Shown piece after piece: positions 14,745 to 60,950 of a stretch of DNA of 64,000 bases (position 1 is its first letter; every line of letters starts with the position of its first letter). A program made the translations under genes and the position numbers. Location: sequence record NC_048170.1; one strand, 5' to 3'. Under the pieces are notes generated by a model. That model was not told the DNA's origin and ran no database searches. It was given only the letters and a program-made list of their open reading frames with translations. Origin of the DNA: Escherichia phage vB_EcoM_Goslar.

Positions 14745-14785
14745 CGCACGTACCTCTTTGAATCTATTAATAAATTTTCTTTACT

Positions 14786-14809
14786 CACGTAAGTAATATA
14801 GCCGTGAAA
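14786..14809 (-). promoter_or_regulatory. conserved promoter-like motif, copy 1
   Basis: Plus-strand cacgtaagtaatatagccgtgaaa, identical 24-mer at 38055-38078; minus-sense contains TATATTAC; 42 nt upstream of the minus gene start at 14744. Confidence 0.45.
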
Positions 14810-14888
14810 GGATTTGTGTTGGTCCGTCTCGATGCCCATCGTATTTTATGGATTGTCGAATGACGTCATTTTAAGGGACATCCCCGGC

Positions 14889-14922
14889 CTCCTCCCCAGG
14901 AAAGGTGTGGGGAGGAGTTTTT
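14889..14922 (+). terminator. intrinsic-terminator-like hairpin with U tract, plus orientation
   Basis: 10-bp stem ctcctcccca/tggggaggag, 9-nt loop, then TTTTTAT; sits 30 nt upstream of the helicase ATG with no plus-strand gene upstream. Confidence 0.4.
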
Positions 14923-14952
14923 ATCATACATTCTATTAAATCGAGCGCGATT

Positions 14953-17034
14953 ATGTTGGATAGAATCAATCGTTTAATGAACCGAATAACGGTTAAAAAT
15001 CAGAGTAACAATAGCGTGCATATCGGGGGTATCGATGCCTGGCGTCTTTCAGATGACATTCAGCGAATATGGGGTACCTCCCGATTTATGAAACATATGT
15101 TTCGTAATTTCTCTTCTAGTGGACTCAGTCTCCACAACTTTTACCTTCTCGATTTCGTTTATATTCTCGAAACGATCGTCGAAGCAAAGAATACCCGCAG
15201 TAATAAACGCATGCTGAAACACCTTATTGAGGTACTGCTGCAGGAAACCTGGTTGCAAAATACCACAATCGAGCAACCTGCAATCCTCGATAAAGCACGC
15301 ATGAACAAAATGCTAACGCTCTCCCTGTTCGATTATCAAGATGAGTTTATCGACATCTATAACCGTAACGTACCTAAATATCGACTGAAAGGATACGTGT
15401 GTGCGATGGGTGCGGGTGCTGGTAAAACAATCACCGCATTGGCTTTAAGCGCCGCAATGAACGTCGACGTATTTGTGGTCTGCTGTCCTAAGAACACCAT
15501 GCGTTCAGCATGGCAATCCGATGTAAACAAAGCCATCGTTGACCTCGCGACAGAAACCGCATTCTGGTCAGATACAATGCCACCATCACAGCTGCAGAAA
15601 AGCGATAAGTATTATTTTCTGCATTACGAGTCGATGGGTTTATTAAACGATGTAATGATCAAGCATAAACGCACCGCGAAGCGCGTGTTGATCGTGGTTG
15701 ATGAAAGCCATAACTTCAACGACAAGAACAGCCAACGTTCCCAACGACTGGTTGATCTCGTACAGACGATGCGTCAGACCATGAATGCGGATGTGCATGT
15801 CTTGTTTATGTCGGGTACGCCCGTTAAACAGATGGGTTCTGAGATGATCCCCTGTTTAGGTTGTATCGATCCGATGTTCCAAGGACAAGTGGTCGATAGC
15901 TTCAAAGCAATTTACGGTTTAACCAGCAGTCGCGCTAACGATATCCTCAGACATCGTCTTGGGTTCATGATGCATGTCGTACCTAAAGAGGCTTACCGTA
16001 AAACCCGTCCGGAAGTTCAGGATGTTTACGTGAAGCTTCCTAATGGTAGCGATTATACCATCTCGAGTATCCGCGACGACATGGCGATATTTGTACGCGA
16101 TCGGGCGAAGTATTACAAGGATAACTGGGGGCATTACAGAAAGATTTTTGATGACGCCTTGGACTACTATCGCAAGACTATTCGTACCGATGGTGAACGT
16201 AAAGAGCTATCTCGATACGAATCGATTGTTGCTCGTTTCCAGAAAGGTTACGACCCCGTCAGAGACAAAGAAGATGCGATGTTCTGCAACGTGTTTGAAA
16301 AACGAGCGATCATGCCGGTTCTTCCTTCTGATTTAAGGGTTGCTTTCAAAGACGCCAAGAGCGTCATCAAGTACGTTGGGTTGAAAATTCAGGGTGAAGC
16401 GTTGGCGCGTGTTCTAGGTGCAGCCCGCATTCGGTGTCATGTCGACATGGTGGAGTACATCGACTTCGAAGGGTACATCAACAACGCTGAAGCCAAGGTG
16501 TTGATCTTCACGTCGTACGTTCAGGTGGTTGAGCGCGTCGACAACATGCTTCGTGATGCGGGTTTCTTACCTGAACCCATTTACGGGAAGACCAACAAAA
16601 ACATCAACCAGATACTTGCTCGTCTACGCGATGATCCTGACAGCGGTCCCGCTATCGCAACATTTGATAGCTTAGCTGAAGGGGTTCCGATGCTGATGTG
16701 TAACGTCGGCCTTTTCCTGAACAATCCATGGCGCTCATCCGATGAAATCCAAGCCATCAGCCGTCTCGACCGTGTCGGGCAAACGCAGCCTGTTCGGATT
16801 TATCGTTTCATGTTGGATACAGGAAGCGAGGGTAACGTTTCTACACGTAGCCACGAAATCATGGAGTTAAGTCGACAGCTTGTTGAAGAAATCACGGGTG
16901 TCAAATATGTAGTGAACAAGCAAGACGATGTTAACTTGCAAGAAACGTTGGCGATGGAAGGATACGATCAATACGTTACCGTAAACACCACGGAATACGA
17001 TATTAAACCGCGACCTGCATTCTTGGAATGGTGA
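14953..17034 (+). CDS. SNF2-family (SF2) ATP-dependent helicase
   Basis: Walker A GAGAGKT, DExH box LIVVDESHNF, motif III MSGTP, motif VI QAISRLDRVGQ. Start set at ATG 14953 (ORF track begins at GTG 14905 inside the hairpin). Confidence 0.7.
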   Translation: MLDRINRLMNRITVKNQSNNSVHIGGIDAWRLSDDIQRIWGTSRFMKHMFRNFSSSGLSLHNFYLLDFVYILETIVEAKNTRSNKRMLKHLIEVLLQETWLQNTTIEQPAILDKARMNKMLTLSLFDYQDEFIDIYNRNVPKYRLKGYVCAMGAGAGKTITALALSAAMNVDVFVVCCPKNTMRSAWQSDVNKAIVDLATETAFWSDTMPPSQLQKSDKYYFLHYESMGLLNDVMIKHKRTAKRVLIVVDESHNFNDKNSQRSQRLVDLVQTMRQTMNADVHVLFMSGTPVKQMGSEMIPCLGCIDPMFQGQVVDSFKAIYGLTSSRANDILRHRLGFMMHVVPKEAYRKTRPEVQDVYVKLPNGSDYTISSIRDDMAIFVRDRAKYYKDNWGHYRKIFDDALDYYRKTIRTDGERKELSRYESIVARFQKGYDPVRDKEDAMFCNVFEKRAIMPVLPSDLRVAFKDAKSVIKYVGLKIQGEALARVLGAARIRCHVDMVEYIDFEGYINNAEAKVLIFTSYVQVVERVDNMLRDAGFLPEPIYGKTNKNINQILARLRDDPDSGPAIATFDSLAEGVPMLMCNVGLFLNNPWRSSDEIQAISRLDRVGQTQPVRIYRFMLDTGSEGNVSTRSHEIMELSRQLVEEITGVKYVVNKQDDVNLQETLAMEGYDQYVTVNTTEYDIKPRPAFLEW

Positions 17035-17038
17035 TTAA

Positions 17039-17068
17039 GAAGCTCTGCCTGACATCAGGCAGAGCTTC
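17039..17068 (+). terminator. intrinsic terminator of the helicase gene
   Basis: Long inverted repeat gaagctctgcctga/tcaggcagagcttc just after the stop, followed by a T-rich stretch. Confidence 0.55.
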
Positions 17069-17133
17069 ATGCTGTATTTGTTGCAAGATCGTATGACGTA
17101 TATGCGTCGTACTTATTTAATAGGACAGAATAA

Positions 17134-18585
17134 ATGAAACTCAAACAAAGCTGGAAAGACGAACTCCTTGCGCTAGTAAACAGCAAAAACAGCTTACAAC
17201 TGACGTTAGACGATGTAAAATTTGAACTGACGGCACCGGTAAGCGAAGTGCCTGGAACGGTTGTTGTTACGATCAAACCGAACGACGATAGCCGTTACTT
17301 TAACGAGCAATCTCTGACCTACGTTCGTCGAGACATCGCTAAAAACTTCACCGGGATCCCGTTACGGGTTATCGTTAAAAATGATACCGCCGTAAGGGAT
17401 ATCATCAATACGATCGCTGAACGTTACGGATTAGTATTTGACACAACCGTCGACTTCCTCGAATCCGAGCTGAATAAACAAATTACGTTCGCAGACACCG
17501 GTATTAAAGACATTACGGTTCCGGTTGCAAACACGTCTTATGTTTGGGCGGGTAATCTTCAGTTCAATATCGCTAACGATACGTTGAGCTTGATTACGAT
17601 CATCAAGCAAACCAATCTTACGAATCTGGTTTATCTGGATGGTGTTGAAGCTGACACATCGGGTTCGTTACTATTAGCAACAACCTCGGTTATCGGCGAA
17701 AACGGAAATGCCGAAACAACTGAAGGTGTCCTTGACGCCGCGTACTTCCAGAATATCCTGAACGTCATGGTTCGTTATGGTGATATTAACAGCGAACAAA
17801 TGCAACAAGCAATGCAGACAATTAACCAAAGCGAAGACGCTCGTAGAGTAGAAGTGCGGTCATACGGTGACGCCGAGTTACTGGTAACCACCAAGAAAGA
17901 TTGGGTTATCGGTAGCCTTAAGGGTGCTATGGTTGTTGGTCACGCTTCACCTAAACCGATCCAATACGTTCTTAAAACAAAAGGCGGCACCATTATATTG
18001 TCATTAGATGGTTGGACAAATGTCAATATCGATTGGGGTGATGGGAATAAGACGACGCAGGACTCAGGCGATAATGAATATCAGCACAATTATGCTGACA
18101 CTACAGAACGTACAATCGTCGCTACGGGTACCCCTACCAACACTGAAGATACAGACGTACAGCAAAGCTTCACCGGTGGTAACATCACTGAAATCGTTGA
18201 CTGGAACAACGGATTACCTAAGGCCCCATCATTCCTTGCGGCGAACAGTTTAATTAAGGTTCCCGATTATATCCCGGCATATTGGACGTCGTTAGAAAGT
18301 ATGTTTACGCGATGCAGCGCTATTAACGACGTGAGCATCACCAAATGGAACACCCGCAACGTTACTTCAATGAAGGACCTCTTCTACGGTTGCGCTACGT
18401 TCAACCAACCGATCGGTTCGTGGGATGTTTCGTCTGTTAAGAATGCAGACAATATGTTGTCTGGGTGCTTCGCGTTCAATCAGGATCTGAGTGGTTGGAC
18501 ATTCCCGGCAGGCACTTCACACATCAACTACGACGGCATGACCGCCGCATGGCAGCCTGATCACAAACCACGCTTCACCGAGTAA
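17134..18585 (+). CDS. hypothetical protein with C-terminal DUF285-like (BspA-type) repeats
   Basis: Repeats of the form F..C..FNQ.I..WDVS.V.N....LSGCFAFNQDLSGW near the C-terminus. Confidence 0.5.
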   Translation: MKLKQSWKDELLALVNSKNSLQLTLDDVKFELTAPVSEVPGTVVVTIKPNDDSRYFNEQSLTYVRRDIAKNFTGIPLRVIVKNDTAVRDIINTIAERYGLVFDTTVDFLESELNKQITFADTGIKDITVPVANTSYVWAGNLQFNIANDTLSLITIIKQTNLTNLVYLDGVEADTSGSLLLATTSVIGENGNAETTEGVLDAAYFQNILNVMVRYGDINSEQMQQAMQTINQSEDARRVEVRSYGDAELLVTTKKDWVIGSLKGAMVVGHASPKPIQYVLKTKGGTIILSLDGWTNVNIDWGDGNKTTQDSGDNEYQHNYADTTERTIVATGTPTNTEDTDVQQSFTGGNITEIVDWNNGLPKAPSFLAANSLIKVPDYIPAYWTSLESMFTRCSAINDVSITKWNTRNVTSMKDLFYGCATFNQPIGSWDVSSVKNADNMLSGCFAFNQDLSGWTFPAGTSHINYDGMTAAWQPDHKPRFTE

Positions 18586-18607
18586 AAAAAAAAATAGTTA
18601 GCATATC

Positions 18608-18639
18608 TTCCTCCCTACCCATAACGGGCGGGGAGGAAG
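18608..18639. terminator. GC hairpin between convergent genes
   Basis: cttcctccc ... gggaggaag inverted repeat followed by TTTAT; preceded by an A11 run. Confidence 0.45.
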
Positions 18640-18656
18640 GTTTATGACGATTTAAT

Positions 18657-18995
18657 TTAGAACCAGAGTTCTTTCATGAAGTAGGCTTCCACATCGTAGA
18701 TAAGCCATTCGTCAGGGATTTCTAAAGGATCGTCTTCGGTTAAGGTCAGCATGTGTAAGGCGAACGCACGCTTAATATCGTTCAGCAGTTTCTCGTCGTC
18801 GTAACCTTCTGGTAGTTTACGGTCTACCAGCTGGGTTTGTTTATAGACATCGCGGAACGCTTCAGGGTTGTGTTTATCCATCGGGAATTGTTCAGCAGCC
18901 TGAACCATCGAAAGCGTCCAGCTTACAACATTGTAACGCTCACCGTTAATTTCACTGAACTGATCATCGATTAAACAAATTTGTTGTACGTTCAT
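18657..18995 (-). CDS. hypothetical protein
   Basis: 112-aa ORF. Confidence 0.4.
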   Translation of the reverse strand: MNVQQICLIDDQFSEINGERYNVVSWTLSMVQAAEQFPMDKHNPEAFRDVYKQTQLVDRKLPEGYDDEKLLNDIKRAFALHMLTLTEDDPLEIPDEWLIYDVEAYFMKELWF

Positions 18996-19953: not shown

Positions 19954-21528
19954 TTACAATTCAAAATCTTCATCGATAACACGCTGGGTAAGCACCTTGT
20001 CGCTGAAGAACTCCACCTTGCGCTGATGGTATTTACGGTGCGCTTCGATAGATGTACATACCAGATACCAGAACGTTGGTGTCATTCCTTCGAACTTCCC
20101 TTTCAGCTGACGTAGGCGTCCCAATACCTGAATGTTACCGGTTCGTGACCCCATCGCTAACGTCATGAACGTCATCACCAAGTCAGGGAGGTCGATACCT
20201 GTACCTGCCGATTTCACCGTCGTAACGCTGATATCGTTATCCAACAAGACCATGAAATCTTCTTCAGCAGTATAAGGACCAATCTCTAACTCAGGAATAC
20301 GTTCACTGAGATAATGCGATAACGACTTACACATATCAACGGTTGCACAATACACCAGCATCTTCATGCCTTCCTGATACTGGTTCATGAAACCTTTGAT
20401 GATAACGGTATAGATAAAGTTGAAATAGGCGAGTTTGAGTTGCTTGTTCTTCATGATAGACTGTTCGAATATCGTGTGAGAATAAGAACCCCCAAAGCCT
20501 TTGTATCTGACTTTATCTGTACTGCGTAATCGATACGTTACCGCATTTACCGCAATGTATTTCTTGTATTCGCATTTCGCATAACGTGCTTCTTTCGGAT
20601 ACATCAAATACAACATCCGTTCGATGAACGGATCGTCGGACACTGCCGTTGCTGACAGATAGATGATTTCCGGAATATTCGCGTAACACTTCACTTTGAA
20701 CAAGAAATGCAATGCTTCGTGACATTCATCATGGATTAACAACCCAATGCCTGTTTTCTCCCAGAACTCGACAGGATGGAAAACATAAGGTGCGACACAG
20801 TTGTTCTTTTCATAATCGGTTATGTATCTCTGAAACATGTTCAGCGAGAATAACGCAATTTTGAAATCCAGCTCACCTTGTTCCACCAACGTCTGGAATT
20901 CCAGCATGCTGTAACGAGGAATGTCTGGATGTGGTGGGTCAGATTGAGCTGTGCCACGTATCTCGATAACATCGCCCGGTTCCATACCGAAGAAACTTAG
21001 CAGTGAGCTACGCCAACCAGGCATGTATCTCGGTGACAGGATAATACCCGTCCGTACACCGCGTCGGAAGGTGATCTCCTGCGACATGGCTGTTTTACCA
21101 GACCCCGTGCCTGCGGTGTTTAAGCTCATTCTGAAGGGGGTATCCTTACCCCCGTCCATGTACTCCAACCATTCTTGTTGATCTTCACGCCACGGAAACT
21201 TCCATTTCTTTACGAACTCCACTTCCTTACCTGGCACTGGATCGTGATAAACGATTTCCAACCACTCTTTTCGGATTCCTCGAGAGAAGATAAAATCCAA
21301 AAACGATTTCAACTGTTCGCGGAGTAAGTATACCTCGCTATAATCGCTTCTCGCTGCGGCATACGTGTTTATGGTATCGGTAACCATTCTCCGTGTACGA
21401 GGGTCACGCCGTTTCCTCAGATGCAAACAACGGTCTCGAAGGTAATGGCCGATAAGATGGGCAAATCGAAGTCCGTATCCGCTCAGCCTCATGCCATGCG
21501 AGAAGACGTCGATACGAGCTAACTTCAT
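19954..21528 (-). CDS. SF2 DExH-box helicase
   Basis: Walker A GTGSGKT, motif II LIHDECHEA, motif VI-like GSRTGNIQVLGRLRQ. Confidence 0.6.
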   Translation of the reverse strand: MKLARIDVFSHGMRLSGYGLRFAHLIGHYLRDRCLHLRKRRDPRTRRMVTDTINTYAAARSDYSEVYLLREQLKSFLDFIFSRGIRKEWLEIVYHDPVPGKEVEFVKKWKFPWREDQQEWLEYMDGGKDTPFRMSLNTAGTGSGKTAMSQEITFRRGVRTGIILSPRYMPGWRSSLLSFFGMEPGDVIEIRGTAQSDPPHPDIPRYSMLEFQTLVEQGELDFKIALFSLNMFQRYITDYEKNNCVAPYVFHPVEFWEKTGIGLLIHDECHEALHFLFKVKCYANIPEIIYLSATAVSDDPFIERMLYLMYPKEARYAKCEYKKYIAVNAVTYRLRSTDKVRYKGFGGSYSHTIFEQSIMKNKQLKLAYFNFIYTVIIKGFMNQYQEGMKMLVYCATVDMCKSLSHYLSERIPELEIGPYTAEEDFMVLLDNDISVTTVKSAGTGIDLPDLVMTFMTLAMGSRTGNIQVLGRLRQLKGKFEGMTPTFWYLVCTSIEAHRKYHQRKVEFFSDKVLTQRVIDEDFEL

Positions 21529-27796: not shown

Positions 27797-28150
27797 ATGT
27801 CTAACACGCCCCTGAACGACTTTCTTAAGACAAACCCCGATGACCTCATCCACGATCTTGATTTCAGGAACGTTGTTGAGATGCATCTGGAATATTTCAA
27901 AAATGCCGGACTGGTCTCTACGATAGACATACCACCCGAACGCGCCTACGAATTCGATGGTAACTTTTATGGATTGTGTCGTGTTCTGCTCGGCGAGGGT
28001 AGCGAACCAATGCACTGGATCACCCTGAGACTCAATGGTTATCGCGACCCTACGGAATACACCGCCGATGTTCTAACCATGAAGATTGTCGATACAAGCG
28101 CAATCAACACATTAAAACAACAGTACCGCACAATCCACTACAGCGCTTAA
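27797..28150 (+). CDS. hypothetical protein
   Basis: ATG 27797 with GAGGT 6 nt upstream; 117 aa; followed by GC hairpin. Confidence 0.4.
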   Translation: MSNTPLNDFLKTNPDDLIHDLDFRNVVEMHLEYFKNAGLVSTIDIPPERAYEFDGNFYGLCRVLLGEGSEPMHWITLRLNGYRDPTEYTADVLTMKIVDTSAINTLKQQYRTIHYSA

Positions 28151-37989: not shown

Positions 37990-38054
37990 TAGGATTTAAT
38001 TTCCAATATAAGGGCAATGTGATATGCCTTATACAGTCGATTGATGTTGTACAT

Positions 38055-38078
38055 CACGTAAGTAATATAGCCGTGAAA
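38055..38078 (-). promoter_or_regulatory. conserved promoter-like motif, copy 2
   Basis: Identical 24-mer to 14786-14809; 66 nt upstream of the minus gene start at 37989. Confidence 0.45.
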
Positions 38079-38087
38079 AATGTTGGA

Positions 38088-43002: not shown

Positions 43003-44898
43003 TTAGAACAGGTTGAATGCCCCACCCATGTTGTTAACGCCAACATTCGGACGATCGCTACGTGCGTAGATGTTACCGGAGATGTTACCCAGACCACGAG
43101 CACGTGCTGCCATGTTACCACGAACAGCGGTACCTGCCAGATGCTGGATGTTCTCAGGACGGATGGTGAAGCCAGCATCAGCAGCGGCTTCGATCAGCGC
43201 CTGCAGTGCTAACGGATCGAAGTCGTAACGCATTGCCCAGCCGGTTTGTTCCCAGCTACCAGACAGAACACGATCGATGATTTCGTGACGAGCGACAACA
43301 CGCTGAGACATCGTCATATCGGTACGGTCGAAGCTGTCTTCCCAAGCTTCTACGGTATCCGGGTTAGTGATGTTCATCATGTACAGATCGTCCATATCAC
43401 GAATATCGTGACGGTGACCATCCTGGTGGTTGTAGTGACCCAGCGGGATACGGTTACCGGTAGCGTAGACCAGCGGTAAGCCGTATTGATATTTCTTGCT
43501 GAAGCAACCCAGGGTAACATCATCGAACGCACGGTAAAGCGCTTTGTAACCTTCGGAGATTTCACGGACTTCACCTTCAACTTTGCCCGTATAGATCTTC
43601 TCAGCCGCCGGGATCATACGCAGCAGCCAGCTGTACTCACCTTCTTCCGGTACGTCGATAGAAATCAGCAGAGACGGATACAGTACCTGTTGCAGGAACT
43701 TGTAAATCTGCTCGTTGGTTTGAGTGGACAGATCCAGCGGTGCGGTAACTTCCGGATCCAGTACCATCGCCAGAGCACCCGGGTTATGCGGACCAATACC
43801 ACGGGCAGCGTTGCTGATTAAAGACTGTGCCCACGCCATACCGCTGTTCAGCGTAGCGATGGTGCCAATCAGCCCCAACACGAAAGTGTTCGGCGTGAAC
43901 GCATCCAGCTCCAGCGGGTAAGCGCTGGTCATCACGTAACGCGGCTGGTATTGTACAGTCGGCGGTACCGGATAACCGTTAACCAGAACAGGGCCTTGGT
44001 TGAAGGTCGGGTTCTGCGGGCTGTAGGTCAGGTCGATGTAACCGGTGGTGGCGACCAGACGCTGTTGACTATCGTAATCGCTCATCGCTTGACGGATACG
44101 GTTAGAGATAGTTACAGTGATGTCAGAACGCACAGGGTTACCAACAATATCGCTGTCCTGCATACCGCTGGTGTTATACTGAACGCTGCTGATTGGCTGA
44201 TCGCTTGCCATCATGCCCAGGTTGAACTGCGGCAGACCCAGTTTATCACCGAGACGGATTTCGATCGCGGTTTGGATTGCGTTATCTGCAGCAGACAGCA
44301 GGGTGGTTGCCAGATGCGCAGATTCAGCGGTGATTTCATTGGTCACCACAGCCAGACCAGCGATACGAGCAGTACCATTAGACTTACCGCCAATAGCTGC
44401 ATACATTGCCGCCATGACTTCGTTGATGAACGTACCGTTCAGGTTATCAACCCAGGTACGCGGTACCAGAATGTTACCATGCGGACCTTGTTCTTCACGA
44501 CGCGGCAGCGGAGCCAAACCGGCAACCAGCGGAAGCACATAACCAAAGAAGTGGTTATGGTCACCAACTTTTGCACCACTCATAACGACCAGGGTCGGAT
44601 ACGGTACGCTGTACTGGTTCGGGTCAACCGCAACAAAGATGAAGTCGTCTTTGAACCGGGTATCTTCCAGATATTTCTCCATCAGACGACGGAGATTCAG
44701 TACCTGCTCGGAGCCAGTATTACGGCTAATACGACGGCTCAGTGTACGGTTGATCGTACGCATCGTATGAGTTACTTTAGGCTGGCCAGCAAAATCTGCA
44801 GCGGTTTCCAGCGCCTCATCAGCACGTTGTGCGGTGCGGGTTTCAGCTGCACGAATTTCTACATTATCGTTACCGTTATTACGTACGTCTAAGCCCAT
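43003..44898 (-). CDS. abundant structural protein candidate: chimallin-like nuclear-shell protein (alternative: capsid or sheath protein)
   Basis: 631-aa ORF with codon usage that looks strongly biased; promoter-like motif 67 nt upstream; sits immediately upstream of the beta'-N gene, the arrangement I recall for the phiKZ shell-protein and RNAP genes. No diagnostic motif seen by eye. Confidence 0.45.
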   Translation of the reverse strand: MGLDVRNNGNDNVEIRAAETRTAQRADEALETAADFAGQPKVTHTMRTINRTLSRRISRNTGSEQVLNLRRLMEKYLEDTRFKDDFIFVAVDPNQYSVPYPTLVVMSGAKVGDHNHFFGYVLPLVAGLAPLPRREEQGPHGNILVPRTWVDNLNGTFINEVMAAMYAAIGGKSNGTARIAGLAVVTNEITAESAHLATTLLSAADNAIQTAIEIRLGDKLGLPQFNLGMMASDQPISSVQYNTSGMQDSDIVGNPVRSDITVTISNRIRQAMSDYDSQQRLVATTGYIDLTYSPQNPTFNQGPVLVNGYPVPPTVQYQPRYVMTSAYPLELDAFTPNTFVLGLIGTIATLNSGMAWAQSLISNAARGIGPHNPGALAMVLDPEVTAPLDLSTQTNEQIYKFLQQVLYPSLLISIDVPEEGEYSWLLRMIPAAEKIYTGKVEGEVREISEGYKALYRAFDDVTLGCFSKKYQYGLPLVYATGNRIPLGHYNHQDGHRHDIRDMDDLYMMNITNPDTVEAWEDSFDRTDMTMSQRVVARHEIIDRVLSGSWEQTGWAMRYDFDPLALQALIEAAADAGFTIRPENIQHLAGTAVRGNMAARARGLGNISGNIYARSDRPNVGVNNMGGAFNLF

Positions 44899-44964
44899 TT
44901 GGGATTCCTCTTTTCTTAAACTTTATTAAATGACGTCATTGAATCAGCTTCTACTCGCTCATTC

Positions 44965-44988
44965 ACCTAGGTAATATAACCCTGAAAT
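44965..44988 (-). promoter_or_regulatory. conserved promoter-like motif, copy 3
   Basis: cacctaggtaatataaccctgaaa, 20/24 identical to copies 1 and 2; 67 nt upstream of the gene start at 44898. Confidence 0.4.
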
Positions 44989-45152: not shown

Positions 45153-46247
45153 ATGTTTCGTGTTTTAAATAACCTCCCGCGAACATCATCGGGTGTGCAA
45201 CCCGTCCCTCAGAAAGACTATCTAATACGCGAAGTTCAAAGAAACCTACAGACAATCCAGAACCACTATCAAGGTTTTACCTTCGCGGTTCAGAGCGATC
45301 ACATCCTTGCGTTGCTGCTCGCACAGCTCCCTATGAGATACGACATCTCAGTACAAACTTACTACGACATGATTCTCGATCTTACCCCAGAATTGGGTAA
45401 TCGTGTCAAGTTGACAACATCAAGATACGCGGGTAAGTTATTCGACGGTGCTTTCTATCCGGGACTGCACGAAGCTATTATCGCAACCGGTGAAAGTCGT
45501 CTTATTTCACGTGATGTTCTTGACAACTGGCGTAATTGGTCACCAGTTAGAATCGTGACGCACCCATACGCAAATCTTCGTTACATTCCTCTTCACCAAA
45601 AGCAGGTTGAAGAAGGACGAGGTTTTGCGGTCATTATGGTTGATGTGCCTTTGTTAGCGCTACAGTATCGAATGTGGTCTTTGGTCATGGGTCATAACGT
45701 CGACGGTAAATGGGTGGTTAAAGAACCGGTTACAAGCTTCCTTGCGAGTTTTCCGTTGGTTAACGCATTATACTCACACAACGATGTTGTTATACGCAAT
45801 CGTTGTTTGTGGGTATCACCGGCTAAGAATCCACTCAAATCACCAATTTACGTTAACGACCTTGATAACGTATTCAGCCAAGTCGTTCTGTCCGTACAGC
45901 ATCATTTATTACGAAGAAGACGAAGCTACACCGATATGCTTAAACAGATACCGAGTTTATACGGGGATCAGTACCAAGCAACCCGAATGGGTTACACCGT
46001 CGATCTTCGACAAACACGATGGGCAAGGGATCTGGGTTGTCTGTCATTATGGCAACAACTCGTCACATTGCAAAACGTATCTGAAAGCGTCGGGTTCAGC
46101 AGTCAAATCGATAACGACCTGTACCGTGCTGCTGACCGTAGTCTAAAAGAAGGTAACTGGGAGTCCTCTCCGTTACCTGGCGATTTAAGACGTGAAGTTA
46201 TCGCACAGGTTGCCGACCTCTTAAAAATTCTTCCCGCCGGTGCATAA
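45153..46247 (+). CDS. hypothetical protein
   Basis: 364-aa plus-strand ORF followed by a GC hairpin (about 46256-46300). Confidence 0.5.
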   Translation: MFRVLNNLPRTSSGVQPVPQKDYLIREVQRNLQTIQNHYQGFTFAVQSDHILALLLAQLPMRYDISVQTYYDMILDLTPELGNRVKLTTSRYAGKLFDGAFYPGLHEAIIATGESRLISRDVLDNWRNWSPVRIVTHPYANLRYIPLHQKQVEEGRGFAVIMVDVPLLALQYRMWSLVMGHNVDGKWVVKEPVTSFLASFPLVNALYSHNDVVIRNRCLWVSPAKNPLKSPIYVNDLDNVFSQVVLSVQHHLLRRRRSYTDMLKQIPSLYGDQYQATRMGYTVDLRQTRWARDLGCLSLWQQLVTLQNVSESVGFSSQIDNDLYRAADRSLKEGNWESSPLPGDLRREVIAQVADLLKILPAGA

Positions 46248-52152: not shown

Positions 52153-52243
52153 ACTCTTTTCCTAAGTCCCCATTGTTTATACACACGATATCTGGGAATA
52201 GTTAAAATATACGGCGTAAAACGAAGCAGGAGAGTTTCTGACG

Positions 52244-53900: not shown

Positions 53901-54743
53901 ATGGGTGCTATTGACTACAGTGTAGATCGTATCTGTCGTACAATACCGGCAGACATCCTACAGTATTGCTATATCGATCGCTACGACTGGCGTAATCGCT
54001 ATCCTCGTTCCGTAGAAGACATCATTACCGATTGGGTAATCCGTAAACGGGTTATCGGCGACATCGATATCTACGGGGGACTACAAACCGTTATTCCCCT
54101 TGATGATGCCGGTGTCACTATCGAAGAAGTCACCATCAACTGTTATGTTTTCCACATTCCGTTGGAAGCCACGCAGGGACGTTATATCACGTCTGCATTA
54201 TCCATTATCTCAGGGAGCGTGAACAACTACGGAATAAACTATAACGGGCAATGGGGCGCTTTCAACCAAACCCAATTTCAACGTCAGCTTTGTGGGTGGA
54301 ACCCCGCAAGCAACACGTTACAGCAAGGGATGAACGCGTTCGGTCCCATGAACGTTCTTAGTACAGCCAACGTTGATATCATCGCACCTAACACCATCAT
54401 GGTGAACAACGTCACGCCGGTACAATTTCCCCTGAGCCTACGCTGTTTCCTTGCCCACGATCCGGAACTTACCAACCTCAGCATGGAGGTTTGGAACGAC
54501 TTCTACAAACTCTGTTTATACGCCACACAAAGTGACATCTACAACAGAACCGTTATCCGTCTCGATAGAGGTGTTACAGCACAAGGACAAGAAGTCGGTG
54601 CATTCAAGGAATACATCGATCGCTTTGCCGATGCTGAAAACACATATCAGGAATTCCTGAACGAAACGTGGGCTGGCGTTGCTGCCTGGAACGATCCACA
54701 AACTAAACGTCGCGCCATTCGACTACAAACCGGTTACTTCTGA
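53901..54743 (+). CDS. hypothetical protein
   Basis: 280-aa plus-strand ORF followed by hairpin plus T tract. Confidence 0.45.
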   Translation: MGAIDYSVDRICRTIPADILQYCYIDRYDWRNRYPRSVEDIITDWVIRKRVIGDIDIYGGLQTVIPLDDAGVTIEEVTINCYVFHIPLEATQGRYITSALSIISGSVNNYGINYNGQWGAFNQTQFQRQLCGWNPASNTLQQGMNAFGPMNVLSTANVDIIAPNTIMVNNVTPVQFPLSLRCFLAHDPELTNLSMEVWNDFYKLCLYATQSDIYNRTVIRLDRGVTAQGQEVGAFKEYIDRFADAENTYQEFLNETWAGVAAWNDPQTKRRAIRLQTGYF

Positions 54744-55351
54744 TTAACGACAGCTTCCTCCCTCGGCGTTTTCGAGGGAGGTATTTGCCGTTTGAACACT
54801 TTCAGCATGTTCGCAAAATCAGCAGCAATAATACAGGCCGAGCTTGATAGCTTATTGCTGAAAATGAGATCGTCCGGTAAACAATCGAACTGAATACCGT
54901 ATTGCGTCTTTGTCTCATCAACGATCAATGATGGTGTCGATCTTGTCTTCGCGATGTCGGTGATATACAAACGTAAAAATAATTCACCGTCTTCGCTATC
55001 CATAAAACGATAAGCGTTACCAGAAAACGCAGCATGCGGCGTAACGATAAATTGAACACGATCGTCGGTCGGATGGATATTTAACCAACGTTCGATATCA
55101 TTACTACTCACATTTCGCATATTTACTACGGTAAAAGCAAATAGCGTATCGTGATGTTTGGAATAATGCAGCACATACGCCGCATCTTTCTTTCCGTGAA
55201 TCCCTTCAATGTATTCTATTGTCGTATAGCCGGATTTATATAGCTTTACTTGCGGTTTATCACTCATCATAACAACCCTTCCCGTTTCATCGCGGCACGC
55301 ATACTTGCGTAAAGCGCATTCTTCATTGCACCCGGACGCAACGGATAACAA
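54734..55351 (-). CDS. hypothetical protein
   Basis: 205-aa ORF. Confidence 0.4.
   Translation of the reverse strand: MLSVASGCNEECALRKYACRDETGRVVMMSDKPQVKLYKSGYTTIEYIEGIHGKKDAAYVLHYSKHHDTLFAFTVVNMRNVSSNDIERWLNIHPTDDRVQFIVTPHAAFSGNAYRFMDSEDGELFLRLYITDIAKTRSTPSLIVDETKTQYGIQFDCLPDDLIFSNKLSSSACIIAADFANMLKVFKRQIPPSKTPREEAVVNQK
54758..54781 (+). terminator. hairpin terminator of the plus-strand gene
   Basis: 9-bp stem cctccctcg/cgagggagg followed by TATTTG; overlaps the last codons of the convergent minus ORF. Confidence 0.45.
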
Positions 55352-59705: not shown

Positions 59706-60950
59706 ATGCTCATGTCTTCTATTTTACAGGTGTTTAATGCGCATGCGGAAGGCATTGACATCGACGAGTATTTTGTTAATCAGGTTATCCGTTACGCGAC
59801 ACGCTTCCGTACGCAAGACCAAGAACACATGCGTTTTTTCGGTGGGGTTCTGTTAGGTGTACAGAAAATCCGATTCACAACAAGACATAACGATACATGG
59901 TTTTCAGACGTCTTGATGATGGATGAAGAAAGCTTACGACGCGATTTGAGTAAACTACCCTTCTACAATACGCAGACCAACCGTGTTGCCTCAAACGCCT
60001 TTAACCTAAGTTGCTGTTGGTTGCTTTATGCGATCTTCCACAGCAAACAAATCAAAAAAGAAAAGGTTCGTGAAGCCGGGATGCTTGCAGCAATGCAAGT
60101 CCTCCATTATAAATTCATTTGCGGTCTGGTAGCACGACGTTATCCTTATAACGCTGATCCGGCTATCGCTATTAAAGCGTACGATGAGTTAACCCTCAAA
60201 TCAGGCATCAAGCGCATGAATAGCTGGAATGAGTACATCGACGAACGCTGTAATGCCATCATTGCGCGTAATAGTACACATTTCAGTCGTTGGTCAACCC
60301 TGGAACCTGATAGCGTCGCCGAACGTTTTGTGCGTGATGTGAATACCGGAATCCGTAAGGTTATCAACCGTATCACCGATACGTACTACGCGATGTACGA
60401 AGAAGGTAAGAAGATAGGCACGTCTTCTCAAACTGTAGAGTTAGACGATGGTCTCGCTGTCCGCGATATTAAACGCAACGAAACCACTTATCGTCAATAT
60501 CTGTTCGAAATCGCTTATGACCGAACGAGTTTCGTTAAACGCGAACTCATGGTCGTCATCCTTGACGTACACCATACTACCAATCTTTTATCCCTTGAGC
60601 GAGCGTTAAGCTATATCAGCGCTAACGTAGAACGACCGACAAGAGACGGAAAACAGGTCTCTCAGATGTTGCGGCTTGTAATGGAGCATGCTATCGAGTA
60701 TATCATCTTGAATAAGGTCGATATGCGCGATCTTACGTTCTTATTCTACATGCGTAACGTGTACACGTCTAACCGCACTAGCAACCCGAAACTGTTAGAA
60801 CTGCGTAAAATTGGCTCTGAAGTCATTAAGAAAGCAACCAATGCGAGAAATGACGCTGAGGCTGCGGCGACACGCACCGGTGTCTTTCTGTATATCCTGC
60901 TTCGTGTGTTTAGCCGTAACTATTACGTTCGACGTGCGATGTCACGTTAA
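59706..60950 (+). CDS. hypothetical protein
   Basis: 414-aa plus-strand ORF. Confidence 0.45.
   Translation: MLMSSILQVFNAHAEGIDIDEYFVNQVIRYATRFRTQDQEHMRFFGGVLLGVQKIRFTTRHNDTWFSDVLMMDEESLRRDLSKLPFYNTQTNRVASNAFNLSCCWLLYAIFHSKQIKKEKVREAGMLAAMQVLHYKFICGLVARRYPYNADPAIAIKAYDELTLKSGIKRMNSWNEYIDERCNAIIARNSTHFSRWSTLEPDSVAERFVRDVNTGIRKVINRITDTYYAMYEEGKKIGTSSQTVELDDGLAVRDIKRNETTYRQYLFEIAYDRTSFVKRELMVVILDVHHTTNLLSLERALSYISANVERPTRDGKQVSQMLRLVMEHAIEYIILNKVDMRDLTFLFYMRNVYTSNRTSNPKLLELRKIGSEVIKKATNARNDAEAAATRTGVFLYILLRVFSRNYYVRRAMSR

What the first reader, a model, noticed from the sequence alone, without database searches (positions are those of the whole stretch)
14953..18585. Plus-strand two-gene island: SNF2 helicase plus a DUF285-repeat protein
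These two genes are the only long plus-strand block among the minus-strand genes, and each is bracketed by its own hairpins. The C-terminal F..C..FNQ.I..WDVS repeats are a surface-protein-type repeat that is uncommon in phage replication modules; it could be a receptor-binding or host-interaction protein.
Basis: partly seen in the sequence, partly recalled or inferred. Interest (0 to 1): 0.4.

Follow-up and report, generated by a model that had tools for sequence, protein, structure and literature searches.

The report
Jumbo-phage virion helicase and adhesin pair
Two real plus-strand genes in a nucleus-forming jumbo phage: a conserved helicase whose orthologue travels with capsids, and a member of a recently described virion filament family whose leucine-rich-repeat tip evolves much faster than its neighbours, probably to bind the host.

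Summary
Genes at 14953-17034 (693 aa SF2/SNF2 helicase) and 17134-18585 (483 aa) are real, co-directional and bounded by four conserved hairpins. The window is an uncultivated ~240-kb chimallivirus (chimallin, split RNAPs) found in Enterobacteriaceae assemblies. This is not a variable island. The unit is in the same place in all five lineage genomes examined, and the helicase is antiparallel to its upstream neighbours in all eight more distant chimalliviruses where this was examined. The helicase is the orthologue of Erwinia phage RAY gp131, which localises with capsids. ORF2 has an N-terminal DUF7941 module, then a linker, a beta-sandwich and a DUF285/BspA-type LRR. DUF7941 is a chimallivirus-specific virion family (PhiKZ gp127 in PDB 9xqd; Goslar gp22/23 filaments; SPN3US paralog family B). 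An April 2026 preprint already describes DUF7941-LRR fusions as putative host-recognition fibres. New here: across 34 orthologues the N-terminal module is nearly invariant while the C-terminal half is hypervariable. Against one close relative, C-terminal dN is ~0.2 versus 0.007-0.047 in neighbouring genes. A paralogue sits next to a canonical tail-fibre gene, and the helicase-DUF7941 adjacency recurs in Klebsiella and Xanthomonas phages. Verdict: new member of a known kind; modest interest.

The parts
14745..14952 (.). Divergent intergenic control region between the minus-strand HD-domain gene and the helicase. It is nearly invariant among relatives.
   Evidence: 99-100% identical to L006 and almost invariant in L009, although flanking coding DNA is 92-95% identical. 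Contains a 26-nt exact repeat of 38054-38079, a TATATTAC on the minus strand 49 nt upstream of the HD gene start, the palindrome ATGACGTCAT (also at 44930) and TTTTATGGATTGT (also at 27965). Promoter roles are inferred and not shown.
14889..14922 (+). Leader hairpin (10-bp stem CTCCTCCCCA/TGGGGAGGAG) plus T5, ending about 30 nt upstream of the helicase ATG.
   Evidence: -20.6 kcal/mol, z -2.7. Conserved in L006 and L009, with a compensatory A-T to G-C pair change in L009. Its function (attenuator, 5' stabiliser or terminator of a short upstream RNA) was not determined.
14953..17034 (+). ORF1: 693-aa SF2/SNF2-like helicase, orthologue of the chimallivirus capsid-associated helicase RAY gp131.
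   Evidence: Pfam ResIII, SNF2-rel_dom and Helicase_C; phrog_62 1.9e-87. Full-length hits (at least 80% of the query) in 200 of 203 matching jumbo-phage records at 33-39% identity, including RAY gp131, annotated 'virion-associated SWI/SNF family helicase'. RAY gp131-GFP localises like capsids (PMC10299810). Under strong purifying selection against L006: dN 0.0068, dS 0.24, dN/dS 0.028.
17039..17068 (+). Inter-cistronic hairpin 1, with 13 consecutive pairs in the predicted fold.
   Evidence: -25.8 kcal/mol, z -6.2, 0 of 200 shuffles fold as well. The stem is conserved and the loop varies in L006 and L009.
17091..17112 (+). Inter-cistronic hairpin 2, terminator-like, followed by a U-rich tract.
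   Evidence: Flagged by the terminator scan. -11.9 kcal/mol, z -3.5. Conserved in L006 and L009.
17134..17598 (+). ORF2 aa 1-155: globular N-terminal DUF7941 domain, the proposed virion-anchoring and filament-forming module.
   Evidence: PF25613 1.1e-24 (87.9 bits, cutoff 27); phrog_1037 'virion structural protein' 8.6e-21. A DUF7941 profile that includes this sequence matches PDB 9xqd chain PHIKZ127 at E 1.5e-19. 120 of 155 columns are invariant across 34 orthologues and mean pairwise distance is 0.043. The AF2 model shows an alpha/beta domain at pLDDT 52-86.
17599..17724 (+). ORF2 aa 156-197: predicted flexible linker. Its first part (aa 156-183) is conserved.
   Evidence: pLDDT 29-47, yet 18 of 28 columns in 156-183 are invariant. 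This fits the published model in which the linker of one protomer docks on the N-terminal domain of the next. The docking itself is inferred.
17725..17844 (+). ORF2 aa 198-237: helical connector, where the variable half begins.
   Evidence: Helices at 202-214 and 220-232, pLDDT ~70-94. Mean pairwise distance for aa 184-237 is 0.27.
17845..18207 (+). ORF2 aa 238-358: beta-sandwich domain with an invariant DWGDG...H.Y motif (PKD-like). This is the most divergent segment.
   Evidence: All-beta, pLDDT 84-95. No Pfam hit. The motif aligns to three repeated WGDG..H.Y segments in P0120, which carries a PKD annotation. BFVD hits include PKD-domain phage proteins. Nucleotide identity to L006 drops to 59-67%; dN 0.22, dS 0.93. 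Hypervariable patches at aa 309-319 and 335-349.
18208..18585 (+). ORF2 aa 359-483 plus stop: DUF285/BspA-type leucine-rich-repeat solenoid, the proposed ligand-binding tip.
18584..18641 (.). A11 run plus hairpin (CTTCCTCCC.../...GGGAGGAAG) between the convergent ORF2 and the minus-strand gene 18657-18995; a likely bidirectional terminator.
   Evidence: -26 kcal/mol (+ strand, z -5.5) and -25.4 (- strand, z -4.8, followed by a long U run). Conserved in L006; in L009 the stem becomes perfect.

Best explanation
The two genes form a conserved, oppositely oriented unit in a nucleus-forming jumbo phage (Chimalliviridae). I infer that both encode virion-associated proteins. ORF1 is the family's capsid-associated SF2/SNF2-like helicase, inferred to be packaged and delivered with the genome. 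ORF2 is a modular DUF7941 protein. Its nearly invariant N-terminal domain and conserved linker are inferred to insert it into the head-to-tail DUF7941 filaments proposed to hang from the peripheral baseplate. Its C-terminal beta-sandwich and DUF285-type LRR are inferred to form an exposed binding head that contacts a variable host-surface structure during initial adsorption. The binding head diverges about 4-9 times faster in sequence than the anchor. Most of this is accelerated amino-acid change at surface positions that repeat from one LRR turn to the next, with occasional allele replacement. Shown here: gene structure, domain content, LRR fold, family membership by sequence, conservation of the arrangement, and the variability pattern. 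Inferred: virion incorporation of this particular protein, its location on the particle, ligand binding, and late co-expression.
Against: There is no direct evidence that this protein is in virions. SPN3US DUF7941 paralogues were assigned to the head because they were detected in a tailless mutant, which conflicts with a baseplate location. The 'fibre cloud' is a preprint model that rests partly on AlphaFold predictions. The AF2 model of the N-terminal domain is only moderate (mean pLDDT 63), and oligomerisation could not be tested. dN/dS stays below 1 everywhere (maximum 0.58), so positive selection is not demonstrated gene-wide. A nonsense allele (Q277*) is common, so the LRR head may be dispensable. 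Late co-transcription is not shown, and two hairpins separate the genes.
Confidence: 0.65

Rival explanations
1. ORF2 is packaged inside the head and ejected into the cell together with the helicase and virion RNAP. Its LRR domain would bind an intracellular host protein (for example a defence factor), and its hypervariability would reflect an arms race with host immunity and not with surface receptors.
Confidence: 0.15
2. The pair is a horizontally acquired accessory island (moron). The DUF285 protein would be a bacterial-type 'BspA surface protein' displayed on the infected cell, for example for superinfection exclusion, and would not be part of the virion.
For: [quoted passage not shown] The strand is opposite to the neighbours. 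The slot after the helicase holds different genes in different phages.
Against: G+C matches the rest of the genome. The unit is conserved in place in all lineage members, and the helicase orientation is conserved family-wide. The N-terminus is a DUF7941 virion module and, on direct reading of MKLKQSWKDELLALVNSKNS, has no signal peptide or lipobox. The bacterial equivalog NF045896 scores 53.9 bits against a cutoff of 500.
Confidence: 0.05
3. The hypervariable C-terminus is the variable region of a diversity-generating retroelement.
For: Localised hypervariability in a C-terminal ligand-binding domain of a phage protein.
Against: No template-repeat-like copy of 17801-18585 exists anywhere in the 64-kb window. 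Substitutions against L006 are spread over all classes and are not adenine-specific. Variable sites extend over ~300 codons and include indels. No reverse transcriptase appeared among the 24 window ORFs scanned against protein-family libraries.
Confidence: 0.02
4. ORF2 is a decaying or dispensable paralogue whose C-terminus drifts under relaxed constraint and has no current function.
For: dN/dS is raised but below 1 (0.24-0.58). A Q277* nonsense allele is present in several sequence clusters (P0057 with 13 members, P0058 with 3).
Against: About 56 database clusters of orthologues keep the full length (480-485 aa; one of 513 aa) across 60-97% identity. Framework residues (DWGDG, Cys/Phe/Trp/Asn of each LRR unit) are invariant while variation is concentrated at recurrent surface positions. 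The frame downstream of the nonsense codon stays open for 207 codons. dN/dS of 0.24-0.58 still indicates constraint.
Confidence: 0.1

Closest known systems
Goslar DUF7941 fusion proteins gp86, gp92 and gp161, part of the 'DUF7941 fibre cloud' (Basu et al., bioRxiv 10.64898/2026.04.21.720040)
   Same: An N-terminal DUF7941 module followed by host-recognition-type domains including LRR/beta-helix. E. coli chimallivirus. The best structural match of the ORF2 model in BFVD is a Goslar 'Tail protein' (A0A482GKF4, 870 aa) aligned over 463 of 483 residues at E 1.7e-9.
   Different: Only 19% identity. ORF2 is shorter (483 aa) and has a specific beta-sandwich (DWGDG) plus DUF285 cassette. Which Goslar gp the hit corresponds to could not be checked because Goslar is not in the local collection. 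ORF2's position next to the helicase and its population hypervariability are not described in that paper.
PhiKZ gp126/gp127 (PDB 9xqd chain PHIKZ127) and Goslar gp22/gp23
   Same: The same DUF7941 family (profile E 1.5e-19 to PHIKZ127). The same layout of N-terminal globular domain plus flexible linker.
   Different: Those are short DUF7941-only proteins (~290 aa) thought to build the filament. ORF2 adds a 250-aa binding head, so it is more likely a filament-borne adhesin than a structural protomer.
SPN3US virion 'Paralog family B' (gps 83, 138-154, 161, 237)
   Same: The same DUF7941 family by sequence: EarlPhillipIV gp143 matches the Pfam model at 3.5e-80 and is 60% identical to SPN3US gp143. 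Virion membership is shown by mass spectrometry.
   Different: They were assigned to the head (detected in a tailless mutant) and are mostly ~270-500-aa proteins in one tandem array. No LRR fusion is reported. The window phage has ORF2 as a single copy in its 64 kb.
Erwinia phage RAY gp131, capsid-associated SF2 (SWI/SNF-type) helicase
   Same: ORF1 aligns over 97% of its length at 34% identity. It shows the same divergent orientation relative to its upstream neighbours and is followed by a co-directional accessory gene.
   Different: RAY's downstream gene (gp130, 279 aa) is not a DUF7941 protein; it has only a weak Gly_rich_2 match. Packaging of ORF1 itself is inferred and not shown.
Bacterial BspA / DUF285 / PARCEL-repeat surface proteins (Mycoplasma, Listeria, Bacteroides, Treponema TpLRR)
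   Same: The same ~25-26-residue Cys-containing LRR unit and fold.
   Different: There is no signal peptide, lipobox or cell-wall anchor. Only about 3 Pfam-recognised units are present (about 5-6 LRR turns by fold). It is attached to a phage virion module. Bacterial equivalog models score far below their cutoffs.
Classical modular phage receptor-binding proteins (for example T4-like long tail fibres and T5/lambda side fibres)
   Same: It works like them in evolutionary architecture: a conserved N-terminal attachment part and a fast-evolving C-terminal binding part.
   Different: No sequence or fold relation. There is no trimeric fibre signature or intramolecular chaperone. The neighbouring paralogue locus has a separate canonical fibre with Peptidase_S74.

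Membership tests
DUF7941 (PF25613) chimallivirus virion filament family | Sequence match to the family model above the curated threshold | tested here: met
   87.9 bits against a gathering cutoff of 27, E 1.1e-24, aa 4-186. phrog_1037 8.6e-21. A profile including ORF2 matches PHIKZ127 (PDB 9xqd) at 1.5e-19.
DUF7941 (PF25613) chimallivirus virion filament family | Encoded by a chimallin-encoding (nucleus-forming) phage | tested here: met
   Chimallin at 43003-44898 (PF25677, 4.8e-25). Split multisubunit RNAP genes (phrog_3015 and phrog_3295). Divergent PolB.
DUF7941 (PF25613) chimallivirus virion filament family | N-terminal globular domain followed by a disordered linker | tested here: met
   AF2 gives an alpha/beta domain at aa 1-155 (pLDDT 52-86) and then aa 156-197 at pLDDT 29-47. 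Model confidence is only moderate.
DUF7941 (PF25613) chimallivirus virion filament family | Head-to-tail oligomerisation and filament formation | not testable with these tools
   No multimer prediction or experiment is available. Indirect support only: linker residues 156-183 are largely invariant (18 of 28 columns) although predicted disordered.
DUF7941 (PF25613) chimallivirus virion filament family | Physical presence in purified virions | not testable with these tools
   Shown for homologues in SPN3US and Goslar by mass spectrometry, but not for this protein.
DUF285 / BspA-type leucine-rich repeat | Repeat match above threshold and an LRR solenoid fold | tested here: met
Bacterial BspA/PARCEL surface (lipo)proteins | Secretion signal or lipobox for display on a bacterial cell; equivalog-level match | tested here: not met
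   The N-terminus MKLKQSWKDELLALVNSKNS has no hydrophobic signal or lipobox on direct reading; no predictor was run. NF045896 scores 53.9 bits against a cutoff of 500, and TIGR02167 scores 26.8 against 30.
Chimallivirus capsid-associated SF2/SNF2-like helicase (RAY gp131 group) | SF2 helicase core (ResIII/SNF2 N-lobe plus Helicase_C) and full-length orthology | tested here: met
   Pfam hits are above their cutoffs. phrog_62 1.9e-87. 200 phage records cover at least 80% of the query, including RAY gp131 at 97% coverage. pir03 orthologue 4e-92.
Chimallivirus capsid-associated SF2/SNF2-like helicase (RAY gp131 group) | Packaging into capsids and injection | not testable with these tools
   Only the RAY gp131-GFP localisation is available, from the literature.
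Defence-system SNF2 helicases (DISARM DrmD, DpdE, Dnd restriction and similar) | Equivalog-level match | tested here: not met
   The best hit is 37.7 bits against a cutoff of 610 (DrmD). All hits are far below their cutoffs.
Diversity-generating retroelement target | Nearby template repeat with adenine-specific mismatches | tested here: not met
   There is no second copy of the variable region in the window, and the substitution spectrum is not A-biased. The rest of the ~240-kb genome was not searched.
PKD-type Ig-like domain (middle domain) | Match to a PKD model | tested here: inconclusive
   No Pfam hit even at E up to 10. The DWGDG..H.Y motif aligns to repeated segments of P0120, which has a PKD annotation (E 3e-4). 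PKD-annotated phage proteins are among the BFVD hits.

The most novel reading that the evidence does not exclude
The recurrent pairing of the capsid-associated helicase with a DUF7941-headed protein (this lineage, Eowyn, LucasX; a DUF285 giant in pir03) reflects functional coupling. On this reading ORF2 would be co-packaged and co-injected with the helicase, and its hypervariable LRR would be an intracellular effector that recognises a polymorphic host defence or takeover target. That would be a phage-delivered LRR effector analogous to type III secretion LRR effectors.
Probability: 0.1. Interest if true: 0.7.

Novelty: new member of a known kind. Interest (0 to 1): 0.3.

Why it matters
How chimalliviruses recognise their hosts is poorly understood. 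The DUF7941 'fibre cloud' idea is only months old and rests on one phage. This locus adds independent, population-level support for it. In a widespread uncultivated Enterobacteriaceae jumbo phage, a DUF7941-LRR protein shows the conserved-anchor and hypervariable-tip pattern expected of a host-range determinant. That gives a concrete candidate to swap or engineer when tuning the host range of therapeutic jumbo phages. It also flags a misleading automatic annotation ('BspA family surface protein' of E. coli or Salmonella) for what is a phage virion-family protein. Finally, it shows that the slot after the capsid-associated helicase is a recurring site for virion accessory genes.

Tried and rejected
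1. Near-identity DNA searches of the locus against deposited phages, PLSDB plasmids and complete E. coli genomes found nothing. The lineage is known only from draft assemblies and metagenomes.
3. The DGR hypothesis was rejected.
4. A second protein search with the N-terminal 190 aa, and a profile search with 22 diverse DUF7941 domains, were saturated by the same lineage and added little diversity. As a result the N-terminal AF2 model stayed at moderate confidence.
5. Goslar could not be fetched for direct comparison.
6. Pfam does not recognise the beta-sandwich domain, so the PKD assignment stays tentative.
7. No tRNA (for example a suppressor relevant to the TAA allele) and no Rfam family was found at the locus.
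8. Free shuffling of modules was not supported. Distances in the N-terminal, middle and LRR parts are correlated (Spearman 0.66-0.88) and only 2 pairs are clearly discordant.
9. Sigma-70 promoter and simple terminator scans were at or below shuffle expectation.
10. The short shared motifs in the upstream region are only marginally above chance.
11. RAY gp130 shows no relationship to ORF2.
Full report
**1. What is in the sequence**

Two co-directional plus-strand ORFs occupy 14953-17034 (693 aa) and 17134-18585 (483 aa). They lie among minus-strand genes.

This is the only multi-gene plus-strand block in the window. Three single plus-strand genes exist elsewhere: 45153-46247, 53901-54743 and 59706-60950. 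G+C is 0.44-0.48, no different from the rest of the window.

ORF1 has an SF2 helicase core: ResIII 6.5e-12, SNF2-rel_dom 7.9e-07, Helicase_C 7.3e-07, and phrog_62 'DNA helicase' 1.9e-87.

**2. The hairpins**

Four hairpins are present and stable:

| Coordinates | Position | Energy (kcal/mol) | z-score |
|---|---|---|---|
| 14889-14917, followed by T5 | helicase leader | -20.6 | -2.7 |
| 17039-17068 | between the two genes | -25.8 | -6.2 |
| 17091-17112 | between the two genes | -11.9 | -3.5 |
| 18605-18641, preceded by A11 | after ORF2 | -26 | -5.5 |

- All four are conserved in two relatives. The leader hairpin shows a compensatory A-T to G-C change, so the structure itself is under selection.
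- Only about ten hairpins with an uninterrupted stem of at least 9 bp and dG at or below -14 exist in the 64 kb. Two of them are in this unit, and the slightly imperfect 18605 hairpin makes a third.
- Most of the ten lie in intergenic regions, several of them at strand switches, and most have CCTCC/GGAGG-type stems. They are this genome's usual terminator-type elements, concentrated at this unit.
- The last hairpin sits between convergent genes and, on the minus strand, is followed by a long U run. It is most simply a bidirectional terminator.

**3. What the window is**

The window encodes chimallin (43003-44898), a divergent family-B DNA polymerase, and split RNA polymerase beta and beta' subunits. 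It is therefore a nucleus-forming jumbo phage (Chimalliviridae).

No deposited phage, plasmid or complete E. coli genome is close at the DNA level. ORF2 orthologues are nevertheless abundant on 235-245-kb contigs from E. coli, Salmonella, Shigella and Enterobacter draft assemblies and from metagenomes. One IMG/VR contig of 237.5 kb is collinear with the window at about 92-96% identity.

**4. Synteny: conserved unit, not a variable island**

The layout HD gene (-), helicase (+), ORF2 (+), 112-aa gene (-) recurs across the lineage:
- the IMG/VR relative L006
- an E. coli-derived contig whose ORF2 is only 60% identical, L009
- an SRA-derived contig, L018
- the genome carrying P0034

In more distant chimalliviruses the orthologous helicase is again divergent from its upstream neighbours. 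It is followed by 0-2 co-directional genes:

| Phage | Genes after the helicase |
|---|---|
| Proteus phage 10, Salmonella SA002 | none |
| Erwinia RAY | a 279-aa protein with a weak glycine-rich match |
| Klebsiella Eowyn | a 145-aa protein and a 172-aa DUF7941 protein |
| Xanthomonas LucasX | two DUF7941-headed proteins, 589 aa and at least 668 aa |
| Pseudomonas Noxifer | a 121-aa protein and a 593-aa 'virion structural protein' |
| Burkholderia FLC9 | an 882-aa SUKH-domain protein |
| Vibrio pir03 (helicase orthologue at E 4e-92) | a 548-aa protein and a 6417-aa DUF285 giant |

The reversed helicase is therefore an old, conserved feature. The slot behind it is a recurrent site for accessory genes, often of virion type, and DUF7941 genes occupy it in three separate lineages.

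**5. Identity of ORF1**

RAY gp131 aligns to 97% of ORF1 at 34% identity. Its GFP fusion localises like capsids, and the authors propose that it is injected with the virion RNA polymerase (PMC10299810).

ORF1 is thus the family's capsid-associated helicase and not a replication-module enzyme. It is under strong purifying selection: dN/dS 0.028 against L006. Matches to defence-system SNF2 helicases are far below their family cutoffs.

**6. Identity of ORF2**

DUF7941 corresponds to a paralogue-expanded virion family:
- Erwinia phage EarlPhillipIV has at least 13 tandem 'virion structural protein' genes at this locus; all five that were scanned match DUF7941.
- SPN3US gp138-154 at the matching locus are 'Paralog family B'. 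All were detected in virions by mass spectrometry and were assigned to the head because they were found in a tailless mutant.
- A DUF7941 profile that includes ORF2 matches PDB 9xqd chain 'PHIKZ127' at E 1.5e-19.

An April 2026 preprint on phage Goslar (10.64898/2026.04.21.720040) reports the following:
- DUF7941 is specific to chimalliviruses.
- gp22 and gp23 are present at about 580 and 2140 copies per virion.
- Purified gp22 forms filaments.
- AlphaFold predicts head-to-tail docking of one protomer's linker onto the next protomer's N-terminal domain.
- PhiKZ gp126-gp127 fits density at the peripheral baseplate.
- Three Goslar proteins (gp86, gp92, gp161) fuse DUF7941 to carbohydrate-binding, glycoside-hydrolase or LRR domains.
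- The authors propose a 'DUF7941 fibre cloud' for host recognition.

ORF2 has exactly this architecture. Its AF2 models show:

| Residues | Predicted element | pLDDT |
|---|---|---|
| 1-155 | globular N-terminal domain | 52-86 |
| 156-197 | low-confidence linker | 29-47 |
| 198-237 | helical connector | ~70-94 |
| 238-358 | beta-sandwich | 84-95 |
| 359-483 | LRR solenoid | 88-97 |

The beta-sandwich has an invariant DWGDG...H.Y motif. The motif repeats before each DUF285 block of a PKD-annotated homologue. Pfam does not recognise the domain, so 'PKD-like' remains tentative.

**7. New evidence from variation**

*Comparison with the close relative L006.* Nucleotide identity is 92-100% across flanks, helicase and the first ~230 codons of ORF2. 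It falls to 59-80% between about 17850 and 18450. Nei-Gojobori estimates:

| Segment | dN | dS | dN/dS |
|---|---|---|---|
| Helicase | 0.007 | 0.24 | 0.028 |
| ORF2 aa 1-236 | 0.026 | 0.12 | 0.21 |
| ORF2 aa 237-384 | 0.22 | 0.93 | 0.24 |
| ORF2 aa 385-483 | 0.17 | 0.29 | 0.58 |
| 12 neighbouring genes | 0.007-0.047 | - | 0.03-0.24 |

*Comparison across 34 full-length orthologues (61-97% identity).* Mean pairwise protein distances:

| Region | Mean distance |
|---|---|
| N-terminal domain (120 of 155 columns invariant) | 0.043 |
| Linker 156-183 | 0.071 |
| aa 184-237 | 0.27 |
| Beta-sandwich | 0.37 |
| LRR | 0.32 |

- Hypervariable sites cluster at aa 309-319, 335-349 and 363-371. They also fall at equivalent positions around the conserved Cys of successive LRR units. 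In a solenoid, such positions line up along one face (an inference from solenoid geometry, not checked on the model).
- Framework residues are invariant.
- Divergence of the parts is correlated (Spearman 0.66-0.88), with only two clearly discordant pairs. The main process is therefore rate acceleration with occasional exchange. The raised dS in the middle part is consistent with that.
- A diversity-generating retroelement is excluded for the window.
- The conserved but predicted-disordered linker fits the published docking model.

**8. Further context**

- A 584-aa DUF7941-DUF285 paralogue (46% identical) lies elsewhere in a genome of the same lineage. It sits immediately upstream of a 175-aa DUF7941-only gene and a 967-aa canonical tail-fibre gene (Phage_tail_fib, Phage_fiber_2, Peptidase_S74).
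- In the unrelated jumbo phages D3 and N1M2, DUF285 giants lie between tail and baseplate genes.
- A natural CAA to TAA change at codon 277 splits ORF2 in some genomes without any other disruption. The binding head may therefore be dispensable, or recently lost, in some settings.

**9. Interpretation and uncertainty**

The best-supported reading is that both genes encode virion-associated proteins. ORF2 would be a filament-borne adhesin with a conserved anchor and a fast-evolving binding head.

The main unresolved point is location. SPN3US data place the family in heads, while the Goslar and PhiKZ analysis places it at the peripheral baseplate. Self-assembling filaments could co-purify with either fraction.

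The rival that ORF2 is an injected LRR effector paired with the injected helicase is not excluded; I give it about 0.1-0.15. Virion incorporation, ligand binding and expression timing are all inferred.

**10. Novelty**

The architecture and its proposed role were published as a preprint in 2026, so this is a new member of a known kind. New here are the population-level conserved-anchor and variable-tip signature, the conserved pairing with the capsid-associated helicase across lineages, and the link to a tail-fibre locus. The finding is of modest interest.

Noticed in passing
window 19954-21528 (-); L009 10823-13084; L006 14149-14830; L018 6822-8831: The second SF2 helicase, next to the RNAP beta' gene, is 524 aa in the window. 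It is 753 aa in L009, has a 681-bp in-frame insertion in L006, and is at least 876 aa in L018, where a weak LAGLIDADG_3 hit is on record. This suggests an intein or homing-endonuclease presence/absence polymorphism. A Pfam scan of the 753-aa form found nothing.
   Followed up: partly
L018 4001-5452 (equivalent to window 17134-18585); clusters P0057, P0058: A natural nonsense allele of ORF2 (CAA to TAA at codon 277, with no indels and the downstream frame open for 207 codons) is present in several sequence clusters. No suppressor tRNA is encoded in the window. P0108 (271 aa, DUF285 only) may be another disrupted allele but was not examined.
   Followed up: partly
window 14785-14810 and 38054-38079; also 44971-44978: A 26-nt exact repeat. 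Read on the minus strand it contains TATATTAC. Three of the four TATATTAC copies in the window lie 49-73 nt upstream of minus-strand gene starts, including chimallin. From memory this resembles the phiKZ early-promoter consensus. The count alone is not above chance.
   Followed up: partly
window 14860-14869 and 44930-44939: The perfect palindrome ATGACGTCAT occurs exactly twice, both times in a divergent (-/+) intergenic region. One-mismatch copies occur at 52238 and 55459. There are 8 matches against 3.6 expected. It may be a regulator site.
   Followed up: partly
window 14844-14856 and 27965-27977: TTTTATGGATTGT occurs exactly twice on the + strand. It contains TATG, which from memory resembles the phiKZ late-promoter core. 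One copy lies about 100 nt upstream of the helicase ATG. There are 7 matches at up to 2 mismatches against 3 expected.
   Followed up: no
window 5618, 11534, 14889, 18605, 42953, 54757, 61103, 63781: The strong hairpins of this genome share CCTCC/GGAGG-type stems. All but one lie between the annotated genes (54757 overlaps the predicted 3' end of ORF 54734-55351), and several are at strand switches. This looks like a lineage-specific terminator style.
   Followed up: partly
L008 8001-13348 (GCA_961210045.1 contig, 235,874 bp): The paralogue locus elsewhere in the genome holds a 584-aa DUF7941-DUF285 gene, a 175-aa DUF7941-only gene and a 967-aa tail fibre with a Peptidase_S74 chaperone domain, all in a row.
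   Followed up: yes
orthologues P0003, P0016, P0018, P0021, P0052, P0056, P0084 and others: [quoted passage not shown] The ~240-kb phage contigs sit unrecognised inside bacterial isolate assemblies, and the element is absent from complete E. coli genomes and from plasmids. This may mean carrier-state infection or contaminating phage in the cultures.
   Followed up: partly
L010 8605-27858 (Vibrio phage pir03): A 6417-aa DUF285 giant protein lies two genes downstream of the orthologous helicase in a distant Vibrio jumbo phage. Its first 800 residues show no DUF7941 match.
   Followed up: partly
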